Notes: generated by a model from the sequence alone, not told the origin. A stretch of 61,688 bases of DNA from a virus (IMGVR_UViG_3300035541_000081:1-61688), one strand, 5' to 3'. Positions 38,801-53,208 are shown, numbered from the stretch's first letter. Made by a program: numbers and translations.

Positions 38801-41800
38801 CGGGCTTGTGGGTCCAGTATTCGTTTACCTTGATCTCTTTGCCGTCAGCGGCTTTACCAAGGACAGTGTTTTCAAGCCAGGCCGCGTCATGGTTGACGGC
38901 TGCGCCTTCTGCCCGTTTTTTGAGGATGATTACGTCGGCCACGACCTTTGTCCCGGCATATTTTTGGAACGCACCGGCAGGCATACGAAATGCGGCAACA
39001 AGATCTGCGCGTTTTTCCATTTGGCGTCGGGCTATTTTCCCCACCTTGTCCATGGTGCCCGAAGCGGTGATCCCGACAACAAGTCCCCCCTCCCGGACCT
39101 GATCCAGGGCTTTGACGAAAAAGTAATCATGCAGCGTCAAGTTATATTTGTTGTATCGTCGATCGGCAGGTCCCTGTGCATCAAACGGCCAGTTGCCCAG
39201 CACCAGGTCATAAAATTCATCTGCGGTCTTGCTGTCCTGGTATCCCATTTGCTGGATGTTCGCCTCCGGGTATAACATTTTTGCCATACCTGCGGTGGTT
39301 TCATCCAGTTCAATCCCGGTTAAGTCGCTGTTTGATTTTAAGCCCTTGGGCATCAAACCAAAAAAATTACCGACTCCCATGGAAGGCTCAAGGACACGGC
39401 CCCCGTTAAACCCGAGTTGCTTAACGATGTCCCAGACAGCGGATACGGTTGGTGGGTCCGTATAGTGAGCATTTCTGATTGACCTTTGTGCGGATTCCCA
39501 GGCAGACTTGCCCAGGTGCGATCTTAGCCACTCGCCTTCTTTGGCCCAGCCGTCTTTATAGGTTGGGTTTTCAAATGTGCCCTGGAACAACTCCTGGCCA
39601 AAAGAGCCCCACCCGATATATGCGGCCATGGTGTCGCGTTCTTCTGCGGTTGGGCGACGGCCTTCATTGGAGACTTCATTGAAGACCTCAATGGCCTTTT
39701 GATTTTTCTTGAATCTGACTTTCGGGGTTCCGCCGATTAACGCCTCGGGGTCTTCAATGTGATAGTTTTCTAATACTCTGTCGGACTCTCCGGGTATTCC
39801 TGTTCCTCTGGCTCGTTCTGCTCCTCCGGGTCCATTATCATCCAGTCCTGTTCCGCTTGCATCTTCGCGTCCGAACTGTTCATCCCGGCGGCCCTCAGCG
39901 CGTCCCACTCCTCCATCATCTTGCATTCCAGGACGTAGGCCGTTTCCTTCAACAGCCCCTGGCGCTTCAGATCCGCGTACATCTTCGGGCGCTGATGTTT
40001 CCAGAGTGTTATCAGATCCTGTTGTTTCGGGCTCGACATTGCTGGCCAACACTCCGTCTCGTCCTCCTGGAATCGTTTCACCGTCTTCTTGACCCAGGCT
40101 TTGTATTCCTGGTCTTCCGTCATTTTCTTGGGATTCTTGGGACTGATCATCGTTGACCTCCTCTGTTGTGGGTGTGGGTGCAGGCGTGGTTTCATTCTCT
40201 ATTGCGTCTGTCCCCTTGTCAAGGGTGTTCGATTCGGTCATCCCCGCAGAATCAAACCCCGGGAAGTGTCGAACTCCTTCATAGAAAGAGCGCAGGTACG
40301 GCTTGACGGACTCGCCAACATCATTAACCATGGCCTTGGAATATTCTGCAAAGGTCCGGGCACCGGCTTCGACATGATACCCGGCCAACTGGATACCGGC
40401 CAGCATGATTTCAGGATCTATCCCGGAATTTAGCTGGTTGCCGGATAGCTTTTTACGGAGGACTTCCCGGGCCTTGTCGGCTGCGTCTTTGGTAAATACC
40501 TTGTTCTTTGCGCCGTAATCAGCCTTGTTTTCCGTGTCAACAGGCTCGAACTTTTTAAAGTCTTCCGGGAATCGCTCTTTCCCTGGCACACCTTTGAGTG
40601 TAAGCATCCCATTCTTTGATATGCTTTTAATTTCAACAGGGTCTTGTGACGCGAATGGATGTTTTTTAGAATCAATATCAAGGACAACCTTATCACCAAC
40701 CTTGAAGCCTTTTTTTGTCGGGTCTTCTTCATATGTTACTTCTTGTCGGGTTGAGGCTCCTGTTCTTCCGGGATCTTCATCGCGTCCTTGATCGCTCCTT
40801 GCAGTATCGCCCGTTTCGCTTCCCGGGACTCTTCCTTTGTCGGCCTGTTCTTCAAATAAGTTTTGCTGCTTGTCTTCGTACTTTTCATGTAAAAACTCCT
40901 TGGCGGTTTCAATTAGGTCTTTTGATGTTAACGTCTTCTTTGTACCAAACATTTCAGCTTGTGCCAAGTCCGCGATATACGCACGGAGGCGAACGCCTAT
41001 AGAATCAAAAAATTCACCAATTCGTTTTCCGCTCCTGATATTATCTGCCAAAAACTGAGCAATGGCCGTCACTTCTTCACTGGGGCCACCACCAAATAAG
41101 TCTCCCTGGTCAATTGTCTGGCGTAATTGTGCTTGTAGAGCTGTCCGACCGTTCCCCGCCTTAATGTCCGGATACTCTTTTTTTGCCCTGCGTAACAATT
41201 CAATGCCGTCAACGATATCATTGACAATGCCAATGTCGGCAAGATCCTTGTCAAGGCCACGCGCCTTCACGAAATTAGACGCCCCATTGGTCAGGCCGTT
41301 TAAGATGTTTTTAATGTCAGTGCTTGCTTCTTCCGCAGATAGCTTTAATAATTCGTCAGAGTTGTACGCTTTCTGGAACACGGCGGCCTGAACCCGGTCT
41401 ATCAACTGTTTATTGGCTCGGCCATCGTCTGTAATATATCCTGACCGTTCTTCAGGAGACATTTTATCAAGAAACAGATCAATAAATCCTTTATTCGTTG
41501 CAGCCATTAGGTTTCCGTCCTGGTCTGGCCTGAACATAGCCAGATCATCAGAGGATAGATTACCGGCATCCACTATGGCCTGCTCGGTTGAGCTCATCTT
41601 AGCAATGTCTGTTTCGTTTGCTTTTTGGGCAAAAGAAACGAGGTCGCCTATCTTTTCCGGGTCAACCACTCGAATCAAAACACCATCTGTATCGGTCCCA
41701 AAATTATCTGCATTTTGATCGAAATATTTTAAATAAGCACTAAGCTTATCGTTGGTTTGTGCTTTTCGTAAGGCCATCGTTCTGGCGTTGCCTGAAATGA

Positions 41801-44651
41801 TAACGTATCTTGGGATGCCATTTTTATCAACCCCACGAGGGATAGCTATTGGTGCGCCATGGGATACACTTGTACTTCCTGCCAATCTTTCCGGGTTTGG
41901 ATTATCTGCAATCTTGTCAACCTGCACAAGTGACATTATCCTTTTTCTATCCCTTGGCTGCAATTCTTTAGGATATTCTGGATTTGGCTCCATAGTATCG
42001 TTATGGGATGTGATAAGGCTTTCTACGGGAACTCTATGATATTCAAACTCGATGGGCGTATTATCGTTTAGGTATGTGGTGCCCGACTTGGTCCCGACTT
42101 GGTCCCGGCTTGGTCCCGGCTTAGTCTCTGTTTGTGAACCACTAACCATATCAGGATAATCTTTTAGCACAGAATCAGGAACTTTTTTTCCATTCAGTGG
42201 AATCTGATGTGACTTTCCATCCTTGGTCGTAACGGTCAGTGCATCAAATGTAATTTCTTTTCCCGCAAAGGATTTATCCCCAACATATTTCTTGCCTTCG
42301 CCCTTCTTGACATAGGCAATCGTGGCATGTGGCATATAATCAAAGGTTTCACCCTTTGGCAAAGATATGTCAGCTTCCTGCTCAATTTTTTTATTCAGTG
42401 CGTGTAGTTCCGGGCTGTCCACCTCGACCTTGACCACGTCGTATTTGTCGTTTTCAAAAATGGAAACATCGCCCATCTTGGCTGTGATCGGAGGATGGTT
42501 TCCAATAATGGGAGCAACGTCCATGGGTGTATTGGTTTTAAGTCCATACTTAACAGTTATATGTGGCTCATCCTCTCGGCCATAGGAGGAGTCGTTTGGA
42601 TCTGTATAAATCTCTGAGTCTGGGATGTTCTTGGCAAAAGCACGGATTTCATTTGCGTCTTTGGTTGGAATGTCTACCTGGGTGCTGCTGTGGTCGTAAA
42701 TTCTATTGTTTTCAGAAGCCTGCTGATCCTCAACCACCGTCAATTTCCTTTCCGGCATGATGGAGTTCGCGCCACTGTCAAGGGTGATGTGCCAGTTCTT
42801 CCCATGTTTTTTGTTCAGGGTGCCAAAGAACTCTTTACCCTTTTTATTTTTCCAGGTTACGGAGGTGCCTGGAGTCATGGGGGTGTCTGTGGTGGTGATT
42901 TCATCGGTCATGGGGGTGACTGTGGACTCTTTTTGAGCCTCAATGACTTTACTCCCCTTAATCCCGCCAGGGGCCTGTTCATCAACAATACCGGGGCCGA
43001 TTATATTTCCAACATCATCCGGGGTAATCTCCGGTCCACCCGCGTTGTCAATGTCCAGATTTGCGTAAAGACTCTCAACCTCATTGTCTTCCATCTTCGG
43101 AATATCGGCCATGTCCTGTGGCTCTTCTGTCTCAAATAGGGATTCTGTCTCCGGGATGGCTTCTGCTTGCTGTTCTTCCTCAACGGACACCGCCTGACTT
43201 GGGACAACATCCACTGGTACCGCCTGCTCTGCTGTCTCAGGTGACGCCGAGTCCGGTGTCTCAACGATTGTTGACGGTTCAGGTGTTTCGGTTTCCTCCA
43301 TTTGCTGTAAAACACCACGCGCCTGCACAAGCTCTTGTAGGTATTGTTCAATCCTATTTTTTTGTGCATCGGTTGGGTTTTGAAACTCAGATAGATTTTT
43401 TACTTTGGTTTCCAGCTTGGCCACATGTTCAACAACCCGACCTTTTTCCACTTCCCGGGCGCCTGCCTGACGAACCTCCTCCTCCATTGCGGCAAACTCA
43501 ACAAAGTTGCCGTTAATGTCGATGGTTTCCCCCTGGTCAATGCGATCCATGGCCATGTCCGCAAAGGCTTTGGCGTTTTCTTTCCCTTCCGGGGTATTAT
43601 CCGCGTCAACAATGGCTTTCTCCAGAGCCTCAACGGCTTTCTCCCGGGCCTGGGGATTTTCCATATCATTTAACTGCCGCTTCAATGATCTTTTCTGAAC
43701 TGTTGTCATGGCCCCGGAACCAACTCCGAAAAGCAAACTCATGGTGATAGCCGGTATGATTGCTTCCGCTGCCGCTTCTTTCCACGCGCCTTCCTCTGCC
43801 AACCCTAAACCGGTTTCAACCTGCATACCGAGGGCTTCCTGCACCATCTCCGTGGGCACTTCTAATAACGTGTTTTTGGAAAATCCTTTGGCCCATTCTT
43901 TGGCAGGGGTTTTTAGCAGTTCGTTAATGCTTTGCTTGAGCGGCTGGGATACCAGCTTGTCGACCTTAAATATCTTTAACCCGATATAGCCGGTCACAGC
44001 CTCAATGCCACCTTCTATAAATCCTTGCTTTAATGCCGCTTTGTGAGCGTCTTCTTCATTGATGCCATGGTCAAGGTATTCCTGCTTCTTTTCCCCGTAT
44101 ACGCCCAGGCCAAAAAGCCCAAGGTTCCCAAGAAATCCACCGGCCAGCGCACCGGCCGGACCACCGAAAGCAGTCCCAACGGCGGCACCGGCAAACGTCG
44201 GCGCAAGCGAAGGCACAGAAGACCGAACGCCACCCTTCCAGCCGCGCGAAAAGAAGTTCTCACCGGCGGCCTCGGATTCATCCAGTTTCATGATATCCAG
44301 GCTTTTGGATTTGTCTGCCATGTCAACCAGACCCTGGCCGATGTTCTCAACAACGTCCAGTCCACCATCAGGATCTATCGTTTTCAACGCATACCCGCCC
44401 ATCCGGGTAAGGTCTGCCGCGCCCCGGGCAAGGTTGGATGCTACATCCCCAACAAACCCGCGCTCAGGGGAAACACCGCCTTTTGCCTGAATCGGCCCTG
44501 GCGCATATTGTTCCTGGTCTTCAAACAAATCTCGATAACCCGGCGCATTGTCCCAGGCAAGCTTATGTTTTTTTTCCAGTTCGTCCGGGTCTTGTTTACT
44601 GAACCTGTCAAGGATTCCGCTGTTTATGTCGTCGTCTGTTAGGTATGGCAT
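28464..44651 (-). CDS. giant multidomain 'polyvalent' virion/ejection protein (5,395 aa)
   Basis: Uninterrupted 16,188-nt ORF in the late operon. Ordered catalytic motifs of 2H phosphoesterase, ParB-like, N6-MTase, SNF2 helicase, ART-like x2 and HExxH, with hydrophobic N- and C-terminal regions. Confidence 0.9.
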   Translation of the reverse strand: MPYLTDDDINSGILDRFSKQDPDELEKKHKLAWDNAPGYRDLFEDQEQYAPGPIQAKGGVSPERGFVGDVASNLARGAADLTRMGGYALKTIDPDGGLDVVENIGQGLVDMADKSKSLDIMKLDESEAAGENFFSRGWKGGVRSSVPSLAPTFAGAAVGTAFGGPAGALAGGFLGNLGLFGLGVYGEKKQEYLDHGINEEDAHKAALKQGFIEGGIEAVTGYIGLKIFKVDKLVSQPLKQSINELLKTPAKEWAKGFSKNTLLEVPTEMVQEALGMQVETGLGLAEEGAWKEAAAEAIIPAITMSLLFGVGSGAMTTVQKRSLKRQLNDMENPQAREKAVEALEKAIVDADNTPEGKENAKAFADMAMDRIDQGETIDINGNFVEFAAMEEEVRQAGAREVEKGRVVEHVAKLETKVKNLSEFQNPTDAQKNRIEQYLQELVQARGVLQQMEETETPEPSTIVETPDSASPETAEQAVPVDVVPSQAVSVEEEQQAEAIPETESLFETEEPQDMADIPKMEDNEVESLYANLDIDNAGGPEITPDDVGNIIGPGIVDEQAPGGIKGSKVIEAQKESTVTPMTDEITTTDTPMTPGTSVTWKNKKGKEFFGTLNKKHGKNWHITLDSGANSIMPERKLTVVEDQQASENNRIYDHSSTQVDIPTKDANEIRAFAKNIPDSEIYTDPNDSSYGREDEPHITVKYGLKTNTPMDVAPIIGNHPPITAKMGDVSIFENDKYDVVKVEVDSPELHALNKKIEQEADISLPKGETFDYMPHATIAYVKKGEGKKYVGDKSFAGKEITFDALTVTTKDGKSHQIPLNGKKVPDSVLKDYPDMVSGSQTETKPGPSRDQVGTKSGTTYLNDNTPIEFEYHRVPVESLITSHNDTMEPNPEYPKELQPRDRKRIMSLVQVDKIADNPNPERLAGSTSVSHGAPIAIPRGVDKNGIPRYVIISGNARTMALRKAQTNDKLSAYLKYFDQNADNFGTDTDGVLIRVVDPEKIGDLVSFAQKANETDIAKMSSTEQAIVDAGNLSSDDLAMFRPDQDGNLMAATNKGFIDLFLDKMSPEERSGYITDDGRANKQLIDRVQAAVFQKAYNSDELLKLSAEEASTDIKNILNGLTNGASNFVKARGLDKDLADIGIVNDIVDGIELLRRAKKEYPDIKAGNGRTALQAQLRQTIDQGDLFGGGPSEEVTAIAQFLADNIRSGKRIGEFFDSIGVRLRAYIADLAQAEMFGTKKTLTSKDLIETAKEFLHEKYEDKQQNLFEEQADKGRVPGSETGDTARSDQGRDEDPGRTGASTRQEVTYEEDPTKKGFKVGDKVVLDIDSKKHPFASQDPVEIKSISKNGMLTLKGVPGKERFPEDFKKFEPVDTENKADYGAKNKVFTKDAADKAREVLRKKLSGNQLNSGIDPEIMLAGIQLAGYHVEAGARTFAEYSKAMVNDVGESVKPYLRSFYEGVRHFPGFDSAGMTESNTLDKGTDAIENETTPAPTPTTEEVNDDQSQESQENDGRPGIQSLGQEDGETIPGGRDGVLASNVEPETTGSDNTLETSAPEDVRGSEAPGAVEGNGLRPGMQDDGGVGRAEGRRDEQFGREDASGTGLDDNGPGGAERARGTGIPGESDRVLENYHIEDPEALIGGTPKVRFKKNQKAIEVFNEVSNEGRRPTAEERDTMAAYIGWGSFGQELFQGTFENPTYKDGWAKEGEWLRSHLGKSAWESAQRSIRNAHYTDPPTVSAVWDIVKQLGFNGGRVLEPSMGVGNFFGLMPKGLKSNSDLTGIELDETTAGMAKMLYPEANIQQMGYQDSKTADEFYDLVLGNWPFDAQGPADRRYNKYNLTLHDYFFVKALDQVREGGLVVGITASGTMDKVGKIARRQMEKRADLVAAFRMPAGAFQKYAGTKVVADVIILKKRAEGAAVNHDAAWLENTVLGKAADGKEIKVNEYWTHKPENVLGNMTIGHGTTQGREGMIVERKRGYEDVLSSLTERLPKNIFTKRGQIDHVNYITNNTTERQNSVTIKDNGLYIVRGERLARLDDTLKYSVKDEKKTAAREAELKSLVRIRERYGKLLDAERNGEKTAENHRTILNQLYKAFVKKYGNLNGSFALKHFVRAGDPMAPAMAALEKNTGTKENPVYEPAKIFTASTQRQKAEIKNPSISDAFVMTRNEVARVVDIEAIAEKAGTTPEAVKAELIKKDAVFETPAGTFEVKDIYLSGNVREKLREAKAAKEDGLDMDRNIKSLEAVIPDDIPYFNIEANLGAAWIPSETYKQFITETANLPEDIAKGIHITPSNNGWIVKFDDAGQIDGRQEVKTIWATPRASFTKILKAAFTGQTITIKSKDEDGNEFVDQEASAAANEKVDAFREALKDWIWKDVDRRVALEQHYNETMNAWATPAYDGSFLSFDGMMLQMGESEFNLRKHQVNAIWRGVANGRGLYAHEVGTGKTFTMGGIAVESRRYGLAKKPLILGHNANSASVADDIQSMYPGAKVLYIDNLTPKTIDQKLYQIANDDWDAVVLPHSLLDRLTLSRETLDRLAQDEIMSLEEEAIASAADEGFDIEHILDDEDALKKIRGATTAKEMVKQRNRIIQNIEKQSQAASREGAIPFESLGVDMLIVDEVHEFKKPPLSTKMKVKGLNTTASGRSIGLNFLTSYVKEQNNGKGVHTFTGTPITNTLNEIYNHMRYVMSNEMEKADVLSWDSWFNTFASVESDIERTSSGDYEMVSRLSGFHNVSELRKFAGQYMDIVFAEDMPEFVPRKTKNGKDLHSKDLTDAERDELVNGRVDKGNPSGRPYKKLVNEVADMSEEQRGILQTLVDRAKSFKDASGKERRDIMKSGDPRNPVIIETDAAKAGFDPRLYDKELSDHPRNKINRCVTNVLKHYQEHEKASQVIFMDKGYNDQATRSRSDGAGGKAKFKVDTFNASKDLKNKLIEGGIPAEQIAIVNSSVAKKKRLEIANKVNSGEIRVVIGLTSTLGTGTNMQENLRAMHHLDAPWMPGELEQRNGRGHRQGNRWNTVLEYRYITESIDARRWQVLAKKQKMITDFLKAKEGVRSIEGDAVDLVSKDLDEINSSFSEAAGDARILIREKLKKDIDKLEKKERTHGQGVVDAKNKIKDIEGRRLPNLKDRVKGLQSDMSHYQSVSKEPWSITIDGKKYTKRQKANVAFEKLSLKLSAQGLRLTEKKNIGTYRGFDIMVSGSVGQGNTYTLERDLSYPIKPATGSIDFLTRNFPSMLDNARKQVSEETNALDKFKQVVKEPFAQEEALKNKKESLDQLEQDLESNPDAPPSWLAQGAPVGTEVYYKGEPWEVDGHRKGEHGHYLIVKQGENQEVVDYREVMDENNMPVYEALEGDVADGVKIPTTSNDKRNTDSKEFKKWFKNSEIVDEEGKPLVVYHATIYPFTVFDKNRNMENDTPTGMFSFAFTSKFAEEFGTRVAMRQKDGVFQDGDRMIAPGLHVKPVYIRAENIFKPHELADSGEIDTVTEFLRKTGRIKSKEDFNKSIKETPNAWGGDYNNYLDIETERALNARHEYLFFENPVALKALGYDGVLFKEDGQEVLSVLEPTQIKSIYNTGTWDGSNPDIRYQTSDDKQNADTKTLDKKYFDAIQRGDMEAAQQLVNEAAEKSGAPIFEKTNETGFSIRRTSPPKKTVKVYKAFRMRDGKLYPMFVGAKDELPINQWMDATEGGYHFTADNGREYIPADTGVSIKIPNDEVRQELFKRGYIKKPTTKSIKSVAYRPGWHGGEVPFFPQAGNAVFNNKKKKLVPEVPDGYSYPNVHEFDTVIAEVEMDADYNYKQEYLDSAARNKDGSINKTLSGLRRIPKGGYYEYATNPLFKDRPELGKWYISGSVKINKILSQKEVNKRLAKIDVPQQLWNKSKDTEFNVLDLNRLGYDPQFNHLHHKLLDPVTYDDNGNPIPLSKRFDLTKTDPRYSSASTIDKAPGQGITLDQIKSKYKNQQITTNPDGILSIRFTNGKGVRIKTVDHIGGDDIRFAMESGRMKRDGVILGKYQDGEITLNTNMADMETAIHENYHALKALGMITPADEKTLNNLTKMLKAQKKNRYDIQEDMEENQANTLAQLVADRANYREGSNVNALIQKIVDFFDALVHIGRQSARKLAREYESGDIYGREANGLSKGTPNFQTAGNTDSEAFKKWFDGSVAKTKSGEPVSFFHGSPNRFTVFEDRPGESTTHTASGLGHFFTMDRDYANSYAKDSGNVIEAYLQMKKPYKMSLDEAQSFETVTDSIIKKRKLRLRGYDSIIIPVPGASPLISVFSSGQVKSVANRGTWDGSNPDIRYQTSDDAKAPTESEKKKVYGQIASGLQHVIKNRKNKGPGYKKDIGVLENTMGLMSHYSESIPALKRTFEELLKRPEWKFQKENELSKNGEESMIGTMEDLQKHNKAAYSDLKEYLVDRDINQIGAVLIQDEDGTWTIKSPKDERTGKRSILEEGILTKNKARDLAIQYEVDEYPDPAARDALRAFRTVTANLHDFYAESWESIIEEYEERGLTLPEVVTRTEAGENRINLKVALSKMGERSSYYFPRQRSNGDWRVYAEKEGEHPFIEYRDFKSTADYLAGKMESQGYTVQVEKTGSMSEDVYQNVKSILSTQAMVNQALSETKLDTKLRTLKDLGINGEWRGEDYVLPAGGVYEWSESVLKKLGGQPYSDLGRGGNSWSPGYRFDNAPKDMPDIVTNALFQAQGQDADVSFEIAKSLANQLADDLRARGSRARMISRSDATGKDVPMGYETDPLKALAQAVNSAAGGYAKQQVAVNTSKAITGQHYTWNEWQKQHPDYDALQAVEESLKTMQKNSKTENERIDAIDQKIKELQRERVGVNTESEAARQDRLFRIGTLFREKEKIRKWKNDDQAAAAHQELARLRGKIHKEYRQYIQDNMLDPKRQKRAYTDAVNAVENVLKNDEAADRVISTLKGLASAWFLGGRLSSAAINLTAMGTTVPAAMDAYGGVPLRKTATHIAKAGKSYASFVTGKGTVPNADRAILEEIFSRGWVAAQLNMETVNALKSGPAQKYGRAVELLMTPFKITEEFNRGTTLLAAYKGIMSENPSMSKEDALSKAKTVSDRAHGIYGVENQPALLRKGRGLRAASAMYIFQTFMHNYMTTLSYMIGRRQAAASTYMILSPMIFGGAASSLALPVVQMIFRAMGEDDPEEKIYQVAEDMFGESGGDIARYGLPGLAGVSLKGSLAPGLPDFKEPLDVLGPIGGMMRNIYQGGVNITQGNYLKGVEKITPLAMGNIAKAYRETSEGITTRAGDQVFFGNEQVQGDLGTGIMRAAGLNPTKIAKPREIQWNETKLKRQYAEKKRRIYSRIVRYHAQPVSKKNPDEWQDIVIEVKKFNARVKSNELTDIVPRITRQTIKSRIRRAFRPSKRERTRE
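31740..32140 (-). other. giant ORF: ART-like module 2
   Basis: SFFHGSPNRFTVFED...GLGHFFT...ISVFSSGQVKSVANRGTWDGSNPDIRYQTSDD. Coordinates approximate. Confidence 0.4.
32350..32800 (-). other. giant ORF: HExxH zincin-like metallopeptidase motif region
   Basis: METAIHENYHALKALG (HENYH coded at about 32547-32573). Domain limits approximate. Confidence 0.4.
33895..34480 (-). other. giant ORF: ART-like module 1
   Basis: PLVVYHATIYPFTVFD...LSVLEPTQIKSIYNTGTWDGSNPDIRYQTSDD. Coordinates approximate. Confidence 0.4.
35560..37420 (-). other. giant ORF: SNF2/DEAD-like helicase
   Basis: LRKHQVNAIWRG, YAHEVGTGKTF (motif I, about 37305-37335), MLIVDEVHEF (motif II, about 36781-36810), LGTGTNMQ...APWMPGELEQRNGRGHRQGN (motifs V/VI). 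Confidence 0.85.
38900..39780 (-). other. giant ORF: gamma-class N6-adenine DNA methyltransferase
   Basis: Motif I VLEPSMGVGNFFG (about 39365-39395) precedes motif IV LVLGNWPF (about 39183-39200). Confidence 0.7.
41600..42060 (-). other. giant ORF: ParB/Srx-like nuclease/NTPase domain
   Basis: IEFEYHRVPVESLITSHN ... PRYVIISGNARTMALRKA. Coordinates approximate. Confidence 0.5.
42079..42122. repeat. 11-bp tandem repeat x4 inside the giant ORF (g[tg/gt]cccg[a/g]ctt)
   Basis: gtgcccgactt ggtcccgactt ggtcccggctt ggtcccggctt. The unit length is not a multiple of 3. Encodes KPGPSRDQVGTKSGT. Confidence 0.9.
42150..42690 (-). other. giant ORF: 2H phosphoesterase (LigT/Acb1-like fold) domain
   Basis: Two H-x-T-x motifs: EPHITVKYG (His codon 42561-42563) and MPHATIAYV (His codon 42327-42329), 78 residues apart. 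Confidence 0.6.
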
Positions 44652-44679: not shown

Positions 44680-45618
44680 TCAACGATATCTTGGATTAAC
44701 GCTTTTGTTGGAGCTTTCAAGGAATTTAAAAGGGTTCGGGCTTATCGGTTTATTTCTGATGGCACCTCCTAATGGATTGGCAGACCCTCTATATTGTGGA
44801 CCATAGACTGGTCTTGTGTCTTTAGATGGATTAACCGCCGGCGACCTTGAAAAATCGGTTTTGGCATGTGATGCTTTCATGCTTATTTGCGGTGTTTTAG
44901 GTGTAGAGATCGCCGTCTCATTGCCACGTTCATTAAAAAATCTTCTACGGCCATCTTTGCCTTCTATCCAATCCATGCGACCGGTGGTATTACCCCCTTG
45001 ACCACGACCACGCATTGCGGACAACTCACCATCTGTAAAATCTATTTCTTTAATGTCAATCCCGTTTTTTTTAGCGTTCTGAAGCTTTTTTGCTATGGAT
45101 AAATCAAGCGTTTCCCTTGAGAGCCCCCCCGCATTTTTTTTGAATGTATCCCAGGCAGCCATGGTATTTCCAGGCGCAGAGGATGGTACACCCCCAAGCT
45201 CTCCATCGCTATCGAGCCCTTGCATCTTTGCAAACCGTTCAAATAAGGCATTGTTTCGATCAAGACCAAAGCGCCGGTCTCTGTCGGTTGCGTTGGAGTT
45301 GAAGATGTCCCGATTGAGGGTGTTCGTCATTTTTTTACGTCGCGTTTCACCAATTTGACGCCTGTTTGCTGTTGCCAAGGCGCCTTCCTGGTTCCTGTTT
45401 GCAACACCCAACAAACCTTTATTCTTTTTTTCTTGTAATGCAAGAGCTCTTTTATTTTCAGCGTCTTTCATTTGGTTTGTGCGAAAATCTTCCATAGAAG
45501 CCCGCTGCTGAAAAGCCCTGCTTGTCGGATCATTCCGAGTTCGTTCATTCCATTCACGCCGACTTCTTTCCTGCGCACGACGACGCTGACCTTCATAAAT
45601 TAAATTTGCTGCTGACAT
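44680..45618 (-). CDS. basic, low-complexity internal virion/ejection-type protein
   Basis: 312 aa, R/K/N/G-rich, immediately upstream of the giant ORF. Confidence 0.6.
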   Translation of the reverse strand: MSAANLIYEGQRRRAQERSRREWNERTRNDPTSRAFQQRASMEDFRTNQMKDAENKRALALQEKKNKGLLGVANRNQEGALATANRRQIGETRRKKMTNTLNRDIFNSNATDRDRRFGLDRNNALFERFAKMQGLDSDGELGGVPSSAPGNTMAAWDTFKKNAGGLSRETLDLSIAKKLQNAKKNGIDIKEIDFTDGELSAMRGRGQGGNTTGRMDWIEGKDGRRRFFNERGNETAISTPKTPQISMKASHAKTDFSRSPAVNPSKDTRPVYGPQYRGSANPLGGAIRNKPISPNPFKFLESSNKSVNPRYR

Positions 45619-45658
45619 TATATAACTCCATAAAATAAAATTTTAAAACCATTCCGTA

Positions 45659-47521
45659 CTAACCATCATAACTATAATTATGCGATTCTGAGTAACTTGT
45701 TTGATCTGAACTGGAAGAAGTAATACCTTGACTCGCGCTGGCATTCACCGCATTCATCGCACTGGCCGCCAACTGTGCATTAACATTCATAATACCTTCT
45801 GTTCCTTTAATCGCCAGTTCTTTCAAGGCCACATATGAATTAGTTTCACTCTCGATTTCCGCTAATGCTTTTTGTAATTTCGCTTTAGTAAGCTCAATCT
45901 GAGATGACAGCTCTGCAATTTGTGTTCTAAATTTCATTTCCTGAACACCAGCTTCAGCCTGATAAGCACTTACATTTGCCTGGTAACCTTTGAGGGACAA
46001 GTCAGCGTTTCGTAATTCAGCATCAATTTCAACACGGTAAGATTCAAGCTGTGTCTTATATTCTTCAATTTTTAATTGGTTTGCATTAATAACCGCTTCG
46101 GCCTTAACGCGCTCTGACTCAAGCACACCAAGTTGACCTCTAACTTCAGCTTCATAAGCAGCAACTTCGCTCCGGAATCCATCGGCTCTGGTAGCCTCTG
46201 CACTTACCTCTCCTTGATAGACATCAACTTTTAATTTTTCACCCTGAATCTTAGCAACATAAGCTTCCGTTTGTGTACGGAAAAGATTAAGTTTTAAATT
46301 CTCATAGTCGAGATTTATTTTTGCAGACTCCATCTCAGTTTGATAAATCTGCATAAACAATTCTTGAGCAGCAACTTGAGCCGAATATAAACGAACTCTT
46401 GACTCTTGAACATCAGCAGCAGCTTTAACGCCTTCAACCTGGGCTTTATAAATCTCAGTCGCTGCAATTTCGGCCTGCACTTTTATTTGAAAAACTTCCG
46501 CATCCGCTTTATATTTTTCGATATATAAATTTTGTTTTGCAACAAGAGTATTATAAACCTCAATCGCATTTGAAGCTAAAGTTTGTTGCGCTTGAAGACT
46601 GCGATTTTGCTGTTCATTAAAGAAAGTCACAAGCATTTGCTCAAGCACCACAGCCTGCTGAACAGAAAACTGAACATTTTTTTGTTCAAGCTCTGCCTGA
46701 TTAATCGTTATGTCACGGCTTGCATTGTCATTTTTTGTAGAAATCTCACTACTTACTTGAAGGAGTCTATGAGCCAATGCCCCTGACGGCAAGCCAAATC
46801 CAGTCGCAGCGAATTGATTTTGAACTTCCTGGAATAGCCGATCATTCTCATTTATTTGCCTGGCAAGATAACGATTATAAATATCTTGCTCGACTGTAAC
46901 ATCTAATCCAGTCCCGCCATTAATAATATCATTAAGGATTTTATTAAATAGTGATACTCGAATATCAGAATTATACGCATCCTCAACAAAATTAAACTCC
47001 GTTGGCTCGGTTAATTGATCAAGTGGTGGCTCAACGACATCAAATTTAGCAATGTCAATTGTAGGTGCTGCTGTAAGGCTTAATTCATCCAATACAGGCT
47101 CAGTTGGAAAATTTAACTCTGGTTTTTTCGGAAGCTCTATGCTTGATAAGCTCGGCTCTTCTGGAGCATTTGGATAATTAATACTTGGTTTTGAAACATA
47201 GTTTGAATTAAAATTAAAATTCTTTGTACTTACAGAGCTTGTAACCTCAGGCACGGTAGCCAACTCAACAGGAGTTAAGGCTAAATTATCGAATGTTGGA
47301 AATTCATTAAGTAGCTCTGTAAAGTTTGGAATTGCACCATAGTTTAAATCAGCATAGGATGGAAAAATAACGTCATTTAATTCTTCTGACTCTGGTGCTT
47401 TGAGGCTATTTAAAAGAGCCTCAAGTGTTTGCATATATTGATCAACATTAGTCAATGCATCATCTGCATAAGCCTGAGCATCATCAAATCGTTGCTCTAT
47501 GAGGTCTGCTGTATAGGTCAT
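45659..47521 (-). CDS. long coiled-coil virion protein (ejection/internal-core or tail-associated)
   Basis: 620 aa. The C-terminal two-thirds is Q/A/E/L heptad-like (…QAEIAATEIYKAQVEGVKAAADVQESRVRLYSAQVAAQ…). Confidence 0.65.
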   Translation of the reverse strand: MTYTADLIEQRFDDAQAYADDALTNVDQYMQTLEALLNSLKAPESEELNDVIFPSYADLNYGAIPNFTELLNEFPTFDNLALTPVELATVPEVTSSVSTKNFNFNSNYVSKPSINYPNAPEEPSLSSIELPKKPELNFPTEPVLDELSLTAAPTIDIAKFDVVEPPLDQLTEPTEFNFVEDAYNSDIRVSLFNKILNDIINGGTGLDVTVEQDIYNRYLARQINENDRLFQEVQNQFAATGFGLPSGALAHRLLQVSSEISTKNDNASRDITINQAELEQKNVQFSVQQAVVLEQMLVTFFNEQQNRSLQAQQTLASNAIEVYNTLVAKQNLYIEKYKADAEVFQIKVQAEIAATEIYKAQVEGVKAAADVQESRVRLYSAQVAAQELFMQIYQTEMESAKINLDYENLKLNLFRTQTEAYVAKIQGEKLKVDVYQGEVSAEATRADGFRSEVAAYEAEVRGQLGVLESERVKAEAVINANQLKIEEYKTQLESYRVEIDAELRNADLSLKGYQANVSAYQAEAGVQEMKFRTQIAELSSQIELTKAKLQKALAEIESETNSYVALKELAIKGTEGIMNVNAQLAASAMNAVNASASQGITSSSSDQTSYSESHNYSYDG

Positions 47522-47530
47522 AAATAATCC

Positions 47531-49429
47531 TTAAACTAAAAATAATTTTGGAACTCTAATATGATCTTCACCACCAAGCCAGGTAAAATTGGTATTCATA
47601 TATTCAAGTATATCTGTAGTATCTACTTGGGCAAACCCTGGCCATTTATTTTGAATATCTCCAAAATTAACTACAAACCATATAAAAGGTTTTCCAGAAT
47701 AAGTACCTGTAGCAACACCAATACCTATTTCAGTAAAATCTTCACTAATCATATTTACCCAATGTATAGGAGAATTTTCCCATTCAGTCATCGTAACATC
47801 AACTACATCATCTTCATCAAGATCTACATTATTAGCATTTTCACCTGTATAATAATAATCATTAACCCAAAGAAAATAATCAGTATCTTGTATACGTTCT
47901 TCCCAAGTAGATCCATCAGAACCTATATGACCTGTCATACTATTTAAAGCTAAATCCTCTGCATGACGTTGAGCTGCTTCTGTTAAATGAATATTAGAAC
48001 TAAATTTATCTAATCCTTCACGTTCTCTAATTTCATTATGAGCATTAAATACAGCTAAAGCATATCCTTCTAAACTTCCAACTGGATGTTTATAAAGTCT
48101 AAATATTTGAGAATAATTTCCAGAAAGTGCTCCATGATATTTCTGGTCTTCAGTTAAACTGTCATTACTATAACCCCAAGCTATGGCACAAAAATCATAA
48201 ACTATTGCTCCATTATTATTTTCAGCTAACCCAAAAGAACAAAAAGGAACTGTTGCTGCAACACAAACATCACCTAAACCGTCAGGATTTTCTTCAATAA
48301 CTCCATAACAATCATTATCCCAAGTATTATAAAGAATATCTGTATAAGCATCTAAATCAGTTTGTGTAGCTACAATATTGCTTCCTTCATAAGTATGTAT
48401 GTTTGTACCAAATACTGAAGCAAACCAAAAAAAGTTTCTTACATATGAAGCTGGTTCATCTGCAGGATCTGGAACAGGAAGACCGCATCTAAGTGCTTTA
48501 ATCTCATCAGGAACACTTGATGGGATATATTGACCATATTTTTCAATTATTCCAGCTGATTCTTGATCTTCTTCTTTATCTGTTTCATGATTAGTATATT
48601 CAATATAAGGAGTCATCCATTCTGCAAAAGGAGTATCAATACCTTCAGGTTGATACAAAGTAATTTGCGGGGCAGTTACTGAAGCATTAGAGTAATCAAA
48701 AGCAGGATCAAATCCAGGAATAATTCCAGTGTAATACACAGGATGATGAATATCACTTACTTTAGTATTTTCTTCGTTAACACAATCAGATAACTCTTTT
48801 TTATTATAATCAATTTGATTGTATTCTGGCCAAACAGAAACAGTAGCATTCCATTCATCAACATTAGCATAACCATTATAACTCTCACAATTAATAGTGT
48901 CTAATGGATCTGCTTTCCACCAACTTTCATAATAACTTCCAGAAGGTTCAAGTTCAATTAGATTTATTTCATCATTACTGGAAGAAACTAAATTAAAATT
49001 ATCTGTTCGTTTGATATAATTTAAAACAAAATTTTTTACATTAGATAAAGTATCAACAACCATTGGATTTCCATCTTCGTCAGTAAGAATTGTATTATCA
49101 ATTAAACTCCAAGCAAAGGCTTCTTGTTCTGATTGTGTTGAAACAATTAAAATATAATCAATTAAAGATTCGAGTTTATCTTCACTAACTATTGGCCTTA
49201 CCCAAATCTTGCATTCTTGATAATTAAAACACTTAATACATTCAATATAAGTATTTTCATTTAACCAAAGCCTTCTCACACCTTGAGATAAATTTTGAAA
49301 ACTCATTTGATTTTTTAAAATCTCAAGTTGGCTTTTAGCGGGACCAATAAAACCTTTTGCAGCTTTTTTATTTCCACCAATTAAAATTTTTGTTGGATTA
49401 ATTCTTATCAAATCCATGACTCCGAACAA
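47531..49429 (-). CDS. tail-module protein with a C-terminal CAP/SCP (PR-1, YkwD-like) domain
   Basis: FNAHNEIREREGLDKF...AAQRHAEDLALNSMTGHIGSDGSTWEERI...GENA...WENSPIHWVNMISEDFTEIGIGVA (about 47660-48067). Start ambiguous (overlaps the upstream gene by 32 nt). Confidence 0.7.
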   Translation of the reverse strand: MFGVMDLIRINPTKILIGGNKKAAKGFIGPAKSQLEILKNQMSFQNLSQGVRRLWLNENTYIECIKCFNYQECKIWVRPIVSEDKLESLIDYILIVSTQSEQEAFAWSLIDNTILTDEDGNPMVVDTLSNVKNFVLNYIKRTDNFNLVSSSNDEINLIELEPSGSYYESWWKADPLDTINCESYNGYANVDEWNATVSVWPEYNQIDYNKKELSDCVNEENTKVSDIHHPVYYTGIIPGFDPAFDYSNASVTAPQITLYQPEGIDTPFAEWMTPYIEYTNHETDKEEDQESAGIIEKYGQYIPSSVPDEIKALRCGLPVPDPADEPASYVRNFFWFASVFGTNIHTYEGSNIVATQTDLDAYTDILYNTWDNDCYGVIEENPDGLGDVCVAATVPFCSFGLAENNNGAIVYDFCAIAWGYSNDSLTEDQKYHGALSGNYSQIFRLYKHPVGSLEGYALAVFNAHNEIREREGLDKFSSNIHLTEAAQRHAEDLALNSMTGHIGSDGSTWEERIQDTDYFLWVNDYYYTGENANNVDLDEDDVVDVTMTEWENSPIHWVNMISEDFTEIGIGVATGTYSGKPFIWFVVNFGDIQNKWPGFAQVDTTDILEYMNTNFTWLGGEDHIRVPKLFLV

Positions 49430-49883
49430 TTGGTAATATTGAAATATTATCTATAGCAAAAACTGTTCCTGAACTATATATTTGTATAGTCCAGTATCTA
49501 CCTTTTAATGTTCTATTGATAATAAGTTTTCTTGCCTGTTGTCCTGTTGAAGTTGCTGATAAAGTATAAGATTCTTCTTTAGAAAGTTCTGTTGATATTT
49601 TTACTATAAGATCTCCATCAGCTTCATAACCAAAATAAAGTGCTCTGAATCTTTTTTGATTACTAATACCAAAATCTAATGTTTTAAGTTCAAAATAAGA
49701 AGTAATATTATTATATGTACCATCATTTGATGGAAACATATCTGTAGTTCCTTCCATAATAAATAAACCATCATTACCAGCACAAAAGAACTTATTTTTA
49801 AACTTACATAAAGAATCAAAATCAAAATTTAAGTATTGTGTAGTAGCATTTATTTTATTTACATTAGTATCAAAAATAATCAT
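49398..49883 (-). CDS. hypothetical tail-module protein
   Basis: 161-aa ORF in very AT-rich DNA, where long ORFs are unlikely by chance. Confidence 0.65.
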   Translation of the reverse strand: MIIFDTNVNKINATTQYLNFDFDSLCKFKNKFFCAGNDGLFIMEGTTDMFPSNDGTYNNITSYFELKTLDFGISNQKRFRALYFGYEADGDLIVKISTELSKEESYTLSATSTGQQARKLIINRTLKGRYWTIQIYSSGTVFAIDNISILPIVRSHGFDKN

Positions 49884-51025
49884 CTTATACGATTCCTAAC
49901 ATATATTAAAACATCTGATGTTATTTCTCCAGAAGTTATTACTATATCTAACGGTTCAAATTCAATATTTATATTTGCAGGATCAGTATTATTAGCAATT
50001 ATATTTAAAGTTAATATTCTTATAGAAGCTTCAATATTACTTGTATAACCTTGAATAACATTTCCAGTAAATAATAATTTTGGAAAAGAGTTAATTATAT
50101 TTCCAACAATACCTGTAGTAATATCCATTGCAACAAGTATTTTTGGAAATGTAATATCTAAATCACAAACACTATTTTGTTTTGCCTTTATATTAATATT
50201 GTATGCTGGAAAATTAAAAACTATATCTGCATTTATTTCTATTTCTGCTTGAGAGTTAAAACTTAATTTATTTAATGTTAAATCTAAATTACTACCACAA
50301 TAACTATTTAAATTTAATTCTGGAAATTTACAAACTAAATTTGAATCATGCCCAGAAGTACCAGAAATAGCTAAATCAAAAATTGGAAAATTAGGACTAA
50401 GAAAACCTCCAGAATAACTATTCATTTCAAAAGATGGAAATTCTATAATCATAGCAAAAATAGAAAATAAACCAATAGATATTGAGTTATTTCCTGAAAC
50501 TTCTAAATTAGCTTTTGATATTTCTAAAGATAATTCAGAACTAACATTACTTCCAGAAATATAACTTTTAGCTGCTGGAATATATAAGTATGTTGCAGAA
50601 TGTACATGAGCAATTAAGTTTAAATTATTTCCAGAAAAATATATTTCAGCAGGAGAAATAATCAATTCAACAGATAAATTTCCACTTATTGTTGGTGCTA
50701 TTCCATTAATAAATGTTTCTGCTTTTACACAAAAAACTTCATTACCTACTAAAATATTCCCACCACTTAATTCTAGCCGTGCTGCTGGAACAGTTAAAGT
50801 ATCTCCTAAATTAACATCAATAATAATTCCAGTAATATTCAAGCTTCCATTTGGTACTAATAACTCAACACTACCACCAGAAATTATTATTTCTTTTCCT
50901 GTAAGATTTATTTCTCCTGGAGTAATTTCAAGTTCTGTAATACTTACTGAAATAGTTGGAATTAAACCAAGTATATTTATTTCTGCCGGAGATATTTCAT
51001 TAAGTATAACAGTTGCATCACTCAT
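49880..51025 (-). CDS. solenoid-like repeat protein (about 19-20-aa units, [IF]Pxxx[LI]xxxG)
   Basis: ISPAEINILG, ITPGEINLTG, VPAARLELSG, ISPAEIYFSG, IPAAKSYISG, FPELNLNSYCG, FPKLLFTGN and others read from the translation. Confidence 0.65.
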   Translation of the reverse strand: MSDATVILNEISPAEINILGLIPTISVSITELEITPGEINLTGKEIIISGGSVELLVPNGSLNITGIIIDVNLGDTLTVPAARLELSGGNILVGNEVFCVKAETFINGIAPTISGNLSVELIISPAEIYFSGNNLNLIAHVHSATYLYIPAAKSYISGSNVSSELSLEISKANLEVSGNNSISIGLFSIFAMIIEFPSFEMNSYSGGFLSPNFPIFDLAISGTSGHDSNLVCKFPELNLNSYCGSNLDLTLNKLSFNSQAEIEINADIVFNFPAYNINIKAKQNSVCDLDITFPKILVAMDITTGIVGNIINSFPKLLFTGNVIQGYTSNIEASIRILTLNIIANNTDPANINIEFEPLDIVITSGEITSDVLIYVRNRIR

Positions 51026-51037
51026 ATTAATCTCCCA

Positions 51038-51367: not shown

Positions 51368-51369
51368 AA

Positions 51370-52731: not shown

Positions 52732-52740
52732 TTAAAATCC

Positions 52741-53187: not shown

Positions 53188-53208
53188 AATATATTATCCT
53201 TATAAAAA

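What the first reader, a model, noticed from the sequence alone, without database searches (positions are those of the whole stretch)
42150..42690. 2H phosphoesterase domain embedded near the N-terminus of the giant protein
Seen: two H-x-T-x motifs, EPHITVKYG and MPHATIAYV, lie 78 residues apart (His codons at 42561-42563 and 42327-42329). They are set in beta-strand-like hydrophobic contexts.

Established: tandem HxT/Sx motifs at roughly this spacing define the 2H phosphoesterase superfamily. It includes LigT 2'-5' RNA ligase and cyclic phosphodiesterases, and phage Acb1, which degrades CBASS cyclic-oligonucleotide signals, has this fold.

Inference: if delivered with the genome, it could destroy cyclic-nucleotide immune signals or process 2',3'-cyclic phosphate RNA ends left by anticodon nucleases at the moment of infection.
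Basis: partly seen in the sequence, partly recalled or inferred. Interest (0 to 1): 0.7.

Follow-up and report, generated by a model that had tools for sequence, protein, structure and literature searches.

The report
2H phosphodiesterase module in polyvalent protein
About 170 residues of a 5,395-residue phage protein form a genuine 2H-type phosphodiesterase domain whose closest characterised relative is the anti-CBASS enzyme Acb1; such modules in giant 'polyvalent' phage proteins thought to be injected with the DNA were already described in 2017, so this is a clean new example and its substrate is still untested.

Summary
The ORF at 28464-44651 (-) encodes 5,395 aa. EPHITVKYG (His697) and MPHATIAYV (His775) lie 78 residues apart at the stated codons.

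The domain is real. Pfam 2_5_RNA_ligase2 scores 41.6 bits against a cut-off of 27. An AlphaFold model has pLDDT 88, and its 38 best PDB fold matches are all 2H enzymes. H/T/H/T is invariant in 53 homologues.

The nearest characterised relatives are phage Acb1 enzymes (profile E 2e-7; hhalign 96.9%). It is not an Acb1 family member: it scores below Pfam's Acb1 cut-off, lacks the C-terminal lid and has its own inserts. It is not a ThpR/LigT equivalog either.

The host protein is a DarB-like polyvalent protein. It carries ddrB-ParB, a methylase-SNF2 helicase core, two ART-PolyVal domains and a PLxRFG C-terminus. Its gene sits in the virion gene block.

The 2H cassette (aa ~650-822) is mobile. At least 527 relatives occur in IMG/VR. 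Of the best 80, 53 are embedded in large proteins and 25 are stand-alone, and stand-alone copies often sit next to terminase or portal genes, with no recurrent RNA-ligase neighbour.

Iyer et al. 2017 already described 2H domains in polyvalent proteins and predicted degradation of nucleotide signals. Verdict: a new member of a known kind. The function is inferred, and moderately favours degradation of nucleotide signals on entry.

The parts
42183..42689 (-). 2H phosphoesterase domain (protein residues ~655-823)
   Evidence: Pfam PF13563 scores 41.6 bits against a cut-off of 27. AF2 model has pLDDT 88 and pTM 0.82. Foldseek matches are all 2H enzymes. The homology block in 80 viral loci is bounded at q~650-822.
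42555..42563 (-). First catalytic motif H697-I-T699 (EPHITVKYG)
   Evidence: H and T are invariant in 53 homologues. The motif is kept in 79 of 80 IMG/VR relatives even though it was not part of the scan pattern. It aligns with Acb1 H44/T46.
42321..42329 (-). Second catalytic motif H775-A-T777 (YMPHATIAYV)
   Evidence: Invariant in the homologues. It aligns with Acb1 H113/T115, and the flanking Y-x-P-H-x-T-[IL]-[AS]-Y is shared with Acb1.
28464..44651 (-). Giant polyvalent protein gene (5,395 aa) that carries the domain
   Evidence: Single ORF. PHROG 10089 'DarB-like antirestriction' at E 0, 1365 bits. Pfam domains are listed.
41667..42065 (-). ddrB-ParB domain (aa 863-995), the next recognisable domain after the 2H domain
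   Evidence: Pfam PF18763, E 5e-22, 78.7 bits.
34602..40154 (-). DarB-like DNA methylase plus SNF2-type helicase core (aa ~1500-3350)
   Evidence: PHROG 10089, 11801 and 62; Pfam ResIII and Helicase_C. 46% identical to the giant protein of Pseudomonas phage USP_18.
33936..34496 (-). ART-PolyVal ADP-ribosyltransferase domain 1 (aa ~3386-3572)
   Evidence: Pfam PF18760, E 2e-15.
31794..32156 (-). ART-PolyVal ADP-ribosyltransferase domain 2 (aa ~4166-4286)
   Evidence: Pfam PF18760, E 3.5e-19.
28500..30017 (-). C-terminal PLxRFG ('tail-700') domain (aa ~4879-5384)
   Evidence: NCBIfam NF032893, 120 bits against a cut-off of 100. Conserved in L002, L006 and USP_18.
44680..61201 (-). Co-directional virion gene block upstream of the giant gene: portal 59390-61201, major head protein 56766-57734, head-closure 53931-54818, virion structural proteins 53209-53931 and 49398-49883
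   Evidence: Pfam SU10_portal; PHROG portal, major head, head closure and virion structural protein.

Best explanation
Residues ~655-823 of the 5,395-aa protein form a catalytically intact, metal-independent 2H phosphodiesterase. Two HxT motifs (H697/T699 and H775/T777) face one cleft and carry out acid-base transesterification or hydrolysis of a ribose-phosphate bond through a 2',3'-cyclic phosphate. The domain is one mobile cassette in a DarB-like 'polyvalent' protein. That protein is made with the virion proteins, most likely packed into the capsid and ejected into the cell with the DNA.

The most likely role is the Acb1-like one: cutting host nucleotide second messengers (CBASS-type cyclic di- or trinucleotides, or related 3'-5'/2'-5' oligonucleotide signals) from the first moments of infection. 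The other domains of the same polypeptide would meanwhile counter restriction (methylase-helicase) and modify host targets (two ARTs).

Shown here: the fold, the intact and conserved active site, Acb1 as nearest characterised relative, the cassette-like distribution, and the virion-gene context. Inferred: packaging and injection, catalytic activity, and the substrate. My estimates: about 0.97 that it is a real 2H domain; about 0.75 that the protein is delivered with the virion; about 0.45 that the substrate is a nucleotide immune signal.
For: Fold and active site:
- Pfam PF13563 above its cut-off.
- A confident AF2 model.
- All significant PDB matches are 2H enzymes, with Acb1 of phage BCSR5 first, and FBB1 Acb1 and a poxvirus cGAMP phosphodiesterase among the top nine.
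- H/T/H/T invariant.

Closeness to Acb1:
- The only solved structures reached by sequence are Acb1 proteins (single sequence E 1e-3; profile E 2e-7 and 8e-4, against 0.015 for the best LigT-like protein).
- hhalign against T4/KVP40/BCSR5 Acb1 gives 96.9% probability, E 1.4e-10.
- Two of Acb1's four base-stacking aromatic residues have aromatic counterparts: W74 aligns with the invariant F732, and F107 with F770. Y110 aligns with the invariant Y772 (Acb1 residues from PMC9117128).

Against RNA repair:
- TIGR02258 (ThpR/LigT) scores 24 bits against a cut-off of 65.7.
- No RNA ligase or kinase hit among the 20 ORFs scanned against Pfam, which include every ORF of 300 aa or more other than the giant gene.
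- ORFs flanking 24 stand-alone relatives are terminase, portal, neck and capsid genes, not RNA ligases.
- Iyer et al. report the same absence.

Delivery:
- The gene lies at the end of a co-directional portal-to-head-to-virion gene block.
- The protein is a DarB-like polyvalent architecture.
- Relatives of this 2H domain are fused to MuF or capsid-morphogenesis proteins (P0054 with PF04233; BFVD hits).
- PMC5512222 and PMC9503650 give the packaging precedents DarB, Alt and MuF.
Against: No biochemical data exist for this subfamily.

The domain scores below Pfam's Acb1 gathering score (17.7 against 27 bits).

Only the core between the two HxT motifs aligns with Acb1. The N-terminal strand carrying Acb1 Y12 is aliphatic or unalignable. 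The C-terminal lid with E141 and W147, which closes over cGAMP, is absent: stand-alone relatives end right after the last strand.

The subfamily has its own conserved inserts, 'IPDxxLYxDxxxxxYGRE' before motif 1 and 'YVKKGxGxxYxG' after motif 2. The substrate pocket could therefore differ.

Structurally, a plant ADP-ribose-1'',2''-cyclic-phosphate CPDase, Usb1 and LigT match nearly as well as Acb1.

A few injected copies may be too few to matter against signals made late in infection.

Packaging rests on context only; no MuF or other head-targeting domain was detected in this protein.
Confidence: 0.45

Rival explanations
1. The domain acts on RNA. It either heals 2',3'-cyclic phosphate ends left by host anticodon nucleases or other metal-independent RNases (LigT/ThpR-like), or it acts as an injected Usb1-like RNase on host RNA.
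For: The best Pfam match is the generic '2'-5' RNA ligase superfamily' model. PHROG matches are labelled 'RNA ligase'. LigT, YjcG, PH0099 and Usb1 are significant fold matches. Iyer et al. give an RNase role as one of two options, noting 2H-MuF/portal fusions parallel to those of PBECR RNases. The conserved Lys/Gly-rich insert after motif 2 could bind a polynucleotide (this reading is inference). Anticodon nucleases such as PrrC guard type I restriction systems, which the DarB-like part of this same protein would attack (established knowledge), so a linked healing activity would make sense.
Against: TIGR02258 is far below its cut-off (24 against 65.7 bits). No RNA ligase or polynucleotide kinase is seen among the ORFs scanned in the window, nor recurrently next to stand-alone relatives. 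The same absence is reported in PMC5512222. By sequence, Acb1 is clearly closer than any LigT-like protein.
Confidence: 0.3
2. The domain works in the NAD/ADP-ribose network alongside the two ART domains of the same protein. It might hydrolyse ADP-ribose 1'',2''-cyclic phosphate or another ADP-ribose-derived phosphodiester, or reverse or process nucleic-acid ADP-ribosylation products.
For: Arabidopsis CPDase, which hydrolyses Appr>p, has the best TM-scores among the PDB matches (0.59/0.67). Two ART-PolyVal domains lie in the same polypeptide. 2H enzymes and ART-fold KptA/Tpt1 are linked in known RNA 2'-phosphate processing (PMC9503650).
Against: Profile sequence similarity to CPDase is not significant (E 0.5). 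ART-PolyVal belongs to protein-modifying ART clades, not to KptA (PMC5512222). The 2H cassette occurs in many proteins without a detected ART, and as stand-alone genes.
Confidence: 0.1
3. The domain is a catalytically silent remnant that serves only as a structural or nucleotide-binding (sponge-like) spacer in the giant protein.
For: No activity has been measured. Polyvalent proteins do contain some inactive domains (for example the inactive PBECR domain in Mu MuF, PMC5512222).
Against: All four catalytic residues are invariant across 53 homologues of 26-48% identity. Motif 1 is kept in 79 of 80 further relatives. That is the signature of purifying selection on catalysis.
Confidence: 0.04

Closest known systems
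2H phosphoesterase domains of phage polyvalent proteins and their stand-alone counterparts (Iyer, Burroughs, Anand, de Souza & Aravind 2017, J Bacteriol, PMC5512222)
   Same: The same situation: a 2H domain inside a giant multi-domain phage protein encoded with late or packaging genes, with stand-alone relatives in other phages and no associated RNA ligase. The same functional prediction: an RNase, or a degrader of 2'-5'/cyclic nucleotide defence signals.
   Different: Nothing in kind. This is a further, very large (5,395 aa) example, combined here with ddrB-ParB, a DarB-like methylase-helicase, two ARTs and a PLxRFG C-terminus. The class remains without experimental test.
Acb1 anti-CBASS nuclease (T4 gp57B; Erwinia phage FBB1, PDB 7T26/7T27; Burkholderia phage BCSR5, PDB 9Q2G)
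   Same: 2H fold with an HxT/HxT tetrad. Shared Y-x-P-H-x-T-[IL]-[AS]-Y second motif. Aromatic counterparts of W74 and F107. The closest solved relatives by sequence profile and by fold. Phage-encoded.
   Different: Below Pfam's Acb1 cut-off. Only the core aligns. No C-terminal lid (E141, W147). The Y12 position is not aromatic. Two subfamily-specific inserts. His-His spacing is 78 rather than 69. It is embedded in a virion-associated giant protein, not a free ~150-aa early protein. The substrate is untested.
LigT/ThpR RNA 2',3'-cyclic phosphodiesterase (TIGR02258; PDB 5LDM, 1VDX, 2D4G)
   Same: Same superfamily and catalytic tetrad, with significant fold matches.
   Different: 24 bits against a cut-off of 65.7 for the equivalog model. 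No RNA-ligase partner. Sequence similarity is weaker than to Acb1.
Phage P1 DarB and DarB-like antirestriction proteins
   Same: The carrier protein shares the methylase plus SNF2-helicase dyad (PHROG 10089). P1 DarB is packaged in the head and injected to protect incoming DNA.
   Different: P1 DarB (~2,255 aa, from my own knowledge) has no 2H domain. The nearest cultured relative of the carrier here, Pseudomonas phage USP_18 (4,947 aa), also lacks it.
Eukaryotic-virus 2H phosphodiesterases (coronavirus ns2, rotavirus VP3 C-terminal domain, penguinpox cGAMP PDE)
   Same: Viral 2H enzymes that destroy host nucleotide immune signals (2-5A, 2'3'-cGAMP). They are fold matches. Rotavirus VP3 is also a virion-packaged multi-domain protein (established knowledge).
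   Different: Only distant structural similarity (TM ~0.4-0.5) and no sequence-level match. The hosts and signals differ.

Membership tests
2H phosphoesterase superfamily | Two H-x-T/S-x motifs, each on a beta-strand, one per lobe | tested here: met
   H697-I-T699 and H775-A-T777. Both open strands in the AF2 model.
2H phosphoesterase superfamily | Profile match above a curated threshold | tested here: met
   PF13563 at 41.6 bits against a cut-off of 27, E 1.7e-10. The match also passes in the context of a 1,500-aa piece.
2H phosphoesterase superfamily | Bilobed alpha+beta 2H fold | tested here: met
   Model pLDDT 88.1, pTM 0.82. PDB ranks 1-38 are all 2H enzymes, E 2.5e-6 to 4e-3. 68 BFVD matches at E<=1e-3.
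2H phosphoesterase superfamily | Catalytic residues conserved in homologues | tested here: met
   H, T, H and T are invariant in 53 sequences. Motif 1 is kept in 79 of 80 IMG/VR relatives found through motif 2.
2H phosphoesterase superfamily | Metal-independent phosphodiesterase activity that depends on the histidines | not testable with these tools
   Needs enzyme assays with His-to-Ala controls.
Acb1 (anti-CBASS protein 1, Pfam PF23474) | Profile match above Pfam's gathering score | tested here: not met
   17.7 bits against 27. Close relatives score 19.9-21.5 bits. hhalign still shows clear relatedness: 96.9%, E 1.4e-10.
Acb1 (anti-CBASS protein 1, Pfam PF23474) | Base-stacking aromatic residues Y12, W74, F107 and W147 lining the cyclic-nucleotide pocket | tested here: inconclusive
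   W74 aligns with the invariant F732, and F107 with F770 (F or H across the subfamily). Y12 aligns with an aliphatic residue or is unalignable. W147 has no counterpart (Acb1 residues from PMC9117128).
Acb1 (anti-CBASS protein 1, Pfam PF23474) | Flexible C-terminal lid (residues ~145-152, with E141 contacting adenine) that closes over the ligand | tested here: not met
   No alignable lid. Stand-alone relatives terminate 0-13 residues after the last strand.
Acb1 (anti-CBASS protein 1, Pfam PF23474) | Cleavage of 3'3'-cGAMP or cyclic trinucleotides, and rescue from CBASS | not testable with these tools
   Needs biochemical and plaque assays.
ThpR/LigT RNA 2',3'-cyclic phosphodiesterase (TIGR02258 equivalog) | Score above the equivalog cut-off | tested here: not met
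   24.1 bits against 65.7.
Phage RNA-repair 2H (healing enzyme partnered with an RNA ligase) | Fusion to, or neighbourhood with, an RNA ligase or polynucleotide kinase | tested here: not met
   No such Pfam hit among the 20 ORFs scanned, which include every ORF of 300 aa or more other than the giant gene. None among the 25 listed of 33 families found in 124 ORFs flanking 24 stand-alone relatives. The window may not be the whole genome.
Polyvalent proteins (Iyer et al. 2017) | Several domains of disparate biochemical activity in one polypeptide | tested here: met
   2H, ddrB-ParB, methylase, SNF2 helicase, two ART-PolyVal domains and PLxRFG.
Polyvalent proteins (Iyer et al. 2017) | Encoded with late, packaging or virion genes of a portal-terminase phage | tested here: met
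   Portal, major head, head-closure and virion protein genes lie directly upstream on the same strand. In phage USP_18 the homologous gene lies between structural genes and the lysis genes.
Polyvalent proteins (Iyer et al. 2017) | Packaged in the virion and injected with the DNA | not testable with these tools
   Needs virion proteomics or injection assays. No MuF or portal fusion was detected in this protein.
DarB-like antirestriction proteins | N6-adenine methylase plus SNF2-type helicase dyad | tested here: met
   PHROG 10089 at E 0 (1365 bits); PHROG 11801 methyltransferase at E 8e-144; Pfam ResIII and Helicase_C.

The most novel reading that the evidence does not exclude
The domain is a ready-made, virion-delivered degrader of nucleotide signals. 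A lid-less Acb1 relative enters with the DNA as part of a ~600-kDa multi-tool. It would destroy CBASS, type III CRISPR or other oligonucleotide second messengers before any phage gene is expressed, and its open pocket might accept a broader or different substrate range than Acb1. That would be the first demonstrated injected enzyme against signalling-based immunity, and the first assigned activity for a subfamily with hundreds of metagenomic members.
Probability: 0.3. Interest if true: 0.65.

Novelty: new member of a known kind. Interest (0 to 1): 0.35.

Why it matters
Signalling-based defences such as CBASS, Pycsar, Thoeris and type III CRISPR depend on small nucleotide messengers. All characterised phage counter-enzymes and sponges are free proteins made after entry. 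This 2H subfamily is abundant in uncultured phages: at least 527 loci in IMG/VR, mostly inside giant virion-linked proteins. It is almost absent from cultured phage genomes (6 of 50,697 records). If it cleaves such messengers, phages would be carrying pre-made anti-signalling enzymes in the capsid. That would change how the timing of the immune race is viewed, and it would give a compact ~170-aa cassette to test. This window adds a clean, well-bounded example and a specific construct, but not a new concept: the domain class and its predicted role were published in 2017.

Tried and rejected
1. Chance motif pair. Rejected on the profile, fold and conservation evidence.

2. Finding the source phage by DNA similarity. 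Megablast of 6 kb against 50,697 phage records found nothing.

3. Full membership in Acb1. Rejected: below the Pfam cut-off and no lid.

4. ThpR/LigT orthology. Rejected.

5. Whether the nearest cultured relative of the giant protein also carries the domain. It does not. Pseudomonas phage USP_18 shares only aa 1377-3600 and the C-terminus, not the N-terminal 1,376 aa. So no experimentally tractable cultured homologue of the embedded form was found.

6. Looking for a MuF, portal or other head-targeting domain in the N-terminal 650 aa. Pfam, PHROG and NCBIfam gave nothing.

7. Literature on an experimental test of a polyvalent-protein 2H domain, on Acb1 together with polyvalent proteins, on BCSR5, and on PLxRFG. 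Nothing relevant was found.

8. Mapping Acb1 pocket residues in three dimensions.

Known biases. The IMG/VR scan used the second motif as its search pattern, so conservation of motif 2 in that set follows by construction; only motif 1 is informative there. Open-frame lengths run stop to stop, so they are upper bounds.

Full report
OBSERVATION

The finding lies inside one uninterrupted minus-strand ORF, 28464-44651, of 5,395 aa. Translation shows ...YGREDEPHITVKYGL... and ...FDYMPHATIAYVKKG.... The whole protein has only 13 HxT/S sites. This is one of two pairs at superfamily-like spacing; the other (621/697) shares His697.

IS IT A 2H DOMAIN?

Yes, by four independent lines.

- Profile. Pfam PF13563 (2'-5' RNA ligase superfamily) matches at E 1.7e-10, 41.6 bits against a gathering score of 27. 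Weaker hits go to Acb1 (PF23474, 17.7 bits) and AKAP7_NLS. The PF13563 hit also passes in a 1,500-aa piece of the protein.
- Structure. An AlphaFold2 model of residues 634-844, built on 53 homologues, has mean pLDDT 88.1 and pTM 0.82. Both HxT motifs open beta-strands.
- Fold search. Foldseek against the PDB returns only 2H enzymes in ranks 1-38. Burkholderia phage BCSR5 Acb1 (9Q2G, E 2.5e-6) is first. It is followed by Arabidopsis CPDase, D. radiodurans CPDase, penguinpox cGAMP phosphodiesterase, FBB1 Acb1, YjcG, Usb1 and LigT. Against predicted viral structures the best match is a piece of another giant uncultured-phage protein (38% identity, E 1e-16). Other matches include 2H domains fused to 'capsid morphogenesis' or structural proteins of actinophages.
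- Conservation. 80 homologues were found among 5.8 billion proteins. In an alignment of 53 of them (26-48% identity), H, T, H and T are invariant, together with G70, F99, Y139, A146 and Y147 of the query.

BOUNDARIES AND DISTRIBUTION

A scan of IMG/VR found at least 527 loci that encode relatives. In the best 80, the homology block always spans query residues ~650-822. The domain is thus a sharply bounded cassette at window 42183-42689.

- 53 of the 80 copies lie in open frames of 434 to more than 5,000 aa.
- 25 are stand-alone (170-244 aa) and 2 are intermediate.
- The 14 closest relatives are all embedded.
- The first HxT, which was not part of the scan pattern, is kept in 79 of 80.

Flanking domains differ from protein to protein. 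L016 has LPD3, and L013 has a histidine phosphatase plus an FtsK-gamma domain. Some carriers share the DarB-like core and others share nothing else. In GenBank phage genomes this subfamily is rare: 6 of 50,697 records, all very large genomes.

THE CARRIER PROTEIN AND ITS CONTEXT

The giant protein contains:
- ddrB-ParB (aa 863-995);
- a methylase plus SNF2 helicase core that matches PHROG 10089 'DarB-like antirestriction' at 1,365 bits;
- two ART-PolyVal ADP-ribosyltransferase domains;
- a C-terminal PLxRFG domain.

This is the architecture that Iyer et al. 2017 named polyvalent proteins.

The window is a phage. It has an SU10-type portal (59390-61201), a major head protein (56766-57734), a head-closure protein and virion structural proteins. 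All of these lie upstream of the giant gene on the same strand. Replication genes (D5-type primase-helicase, RecD2-like helicase, PD-(D/E)XK nuclease, DnaG zinc ribbon) lie downstream.

The nearest cultured relative of the carrier is the 4,947-aa protein of Pseudomonas phage vB_PaeM_USP_18, 46% identical over aa 1504-3351. That gene sits between structural genes and the lysis genes. It lacks the N-terminal 1,376 aa, including the 2H and ParB domains. The 2H cassette therefore belongs to the variable part of these proteins.

Packaging and injection are not shown here. They are inferred from this context, from the precedents of P1 DarB, T4 Alt and MuF fusions (PMC5512222, PMC9503650), and from 2H-MuF fusions among the relatives (P0054).

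WHICH KIND OF 2H ENZYME?

By sequence the nearest characterised proteins are Acb1 enzymes.
- They are the only genuine PDB hit with the single sequence (E 1e-3).
- They are the top hits with the family profile: BCSR5 at 2e-7 and FBB1 at 8e-4, against 0.015 for the best LigT-like protein.
- hhalign against T4, KVP40 and BCSR5 Acb1 gives 96.9% probability, E 1.4e-10.

Acb1 residue roles come from Hobbs et al. 2022 (PMC9117128). The tetrad H44/T46/H113/T115 aligns with H697/T699/H775/T777. W74 aligns with the invariant F732, F107 with F770, and Y110 with the invariant Y772.

Only the core aligns, however.
- The Y12 strand is aliphatic or unalignable.
- The C-terminal lid (E141, W147) has no counterpart.
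- The subfamily has two conserved inserts of its own.
- The Pfam Acb1 score is below threshold.

So it is related to Acb1 but is not a member of the Acb1 family.

It is not a ThpR/LigT equivalog either (24 against 65.7 bits). No RNA ligase or kinase was found among the 20 ORFs scanned against Pfam, which include every ORF of 300 aa or more other than the giant gene. ORFs flanking 24 stand-alone relatives encode large terminase (11), T4-type portal (7), neck, sheath-stabiliser and capsid proteins, not RNA ligases. This agrees with the published statement that these versions never associate with RNA ligases.

MECHANISM

Shown: an intact, conserved 2H active site in a virion-gene-linked polyvalent protein, closest to Acb1.

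Inferred: the protein is packaged and ejected with the DNA. The domain, perhaps after proteolytic release, then uses the two His/Thr pairs for metal-independent attack of a ribose 2'-OH on the adjacent phosphodiester, followed by hydrolysis of the cyclic intermediate, as in Acb1. Its most likely substrates are host cyclic or linear oligonucleotide second messengers (about 0.45).

Rivals:
- RNA-end healing or RNase action (about 0.3). This gains some appeal because anticodon nucleases guard the type I restriction systems that the DarB-like part would attack.
- An ADP-ribose-cyclic-phosphate role linked to the two ART domains (about 0.1).
- An inactive spacer (about 0.04 or less).

COMPARISON WITH WHAT IS KNOWN, AND NOVELTY

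Iyer et al. [quoted passage not shown] They predict either RNase activity or degradation of nucleotide signals of counter-invader systems. Standard annotation (Pfam) flags the domain above threshold.

The finding is therefore a correct recognition of a known kind of module, not a new one. What remains open, for the whole class, is the substrate and the proof of delivery. I found no paper that tests either.

Interest: 0.35. It is a solid, well-bounded example with a directly testable and attractive hypothesis, but the concept is published and the evidence here is purely computational.

Noticed in passing
window 44100-44153 and 43704-43778 (aa 166-184, 292-316); 29166-29237 (aa 5139-5162), minus strand: The giant protein has three strongly hydrophobic, Gly/Ala-rich segments, two near the N-terminus and one near the C-terminus. 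They look like membrane-spanning helices. That would fit an ejection protein that inserts into the host envelope, but it was not analysed further.
   Followed up: partly
window 42735-42875 (aa ~593-639) and ~40560-40730 (aa ~1308-1364), minus strand: Short Lys-rich beta-type modules (…VTWKNKKGKEFFGTLNKKHGKNWHITLDSG… and …KKGFKVGDKVVLDIDSKKHPFASQDPVEIKSISKNGMLTLKG…) flank the enzymatic domains and resemble small SH3/KOW-like barrels. The first is co-conserved with the 2H domain in L001 and L047. No family match was found.
   Followed up: no
L013:8460-9320 (IMGVR_UViG_3300031715_000001): In one relative, the giant protein carries a histidine phosphatase (His_Phos_1) and an FtsK-gamma DNA-binding domain upstream of the 2H domain. 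A phosphatase next to a 2H enzyme could remove the terminal phosphate that the 2H reaction leaves behind. This hints at a two-step nucleotide or RNA-end processing route.
   Followed up: no
Loci L017-L080 (stand-alone relatives), ORFs within ~4 kb of the 2H gene: Stand-alone 2H genes of this subfamily often sit between large terminase and T4-type portal genes. 8 of the 124 neighbouring ORFs carry intein splicing domains, 3 of them with LAGLIDADG homing endonucleases. M28 peptidases recur in 4.
   Followed up: partly
window 47531-49429 (-): A 632-aa protein in the virion gene block ends in a CAP/SCP (cysteine-rich secretory protein) domain (Pfam PF00188, E 1.4e-13; the PHROG label is 'sporulation protein'). 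This is an unusual domain for a phage structural module.
   Followed up: no
window 40257-40508 (aa 1382-1465), minus strand: An ~85-aa segment matches the C-terminal part of PHROG 938 (labelled 'endolysin', E 6e-31) and PHROG 10691. The same segment is conserved in USP_18 (50% identity) and L046. It is probably a widespread uncharacterised polyvalent-protein module, not a lysin.
   Followed up: no
window 16698-18590 (-): A 630-aa ORF has an N-terminal Gp3-like 'recombination directionality factor-like' domain (PF18897, E 1.3e-27) within the replication module. The rest of the protein is unassigned.
   Followed up: no
window 2615-4162, 25897-27753, 49880-51025, 51370-52731 (all -): Several large ORFs (515, 618, 381 and 453 aa) have no Pfam match. 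The three that were also scanned against PHROGs (618, 381 and 453 aa) have no match there either. The phage as a whole has no near-DNA relative among 50,697 GenBank phage records.
   Followed up: no
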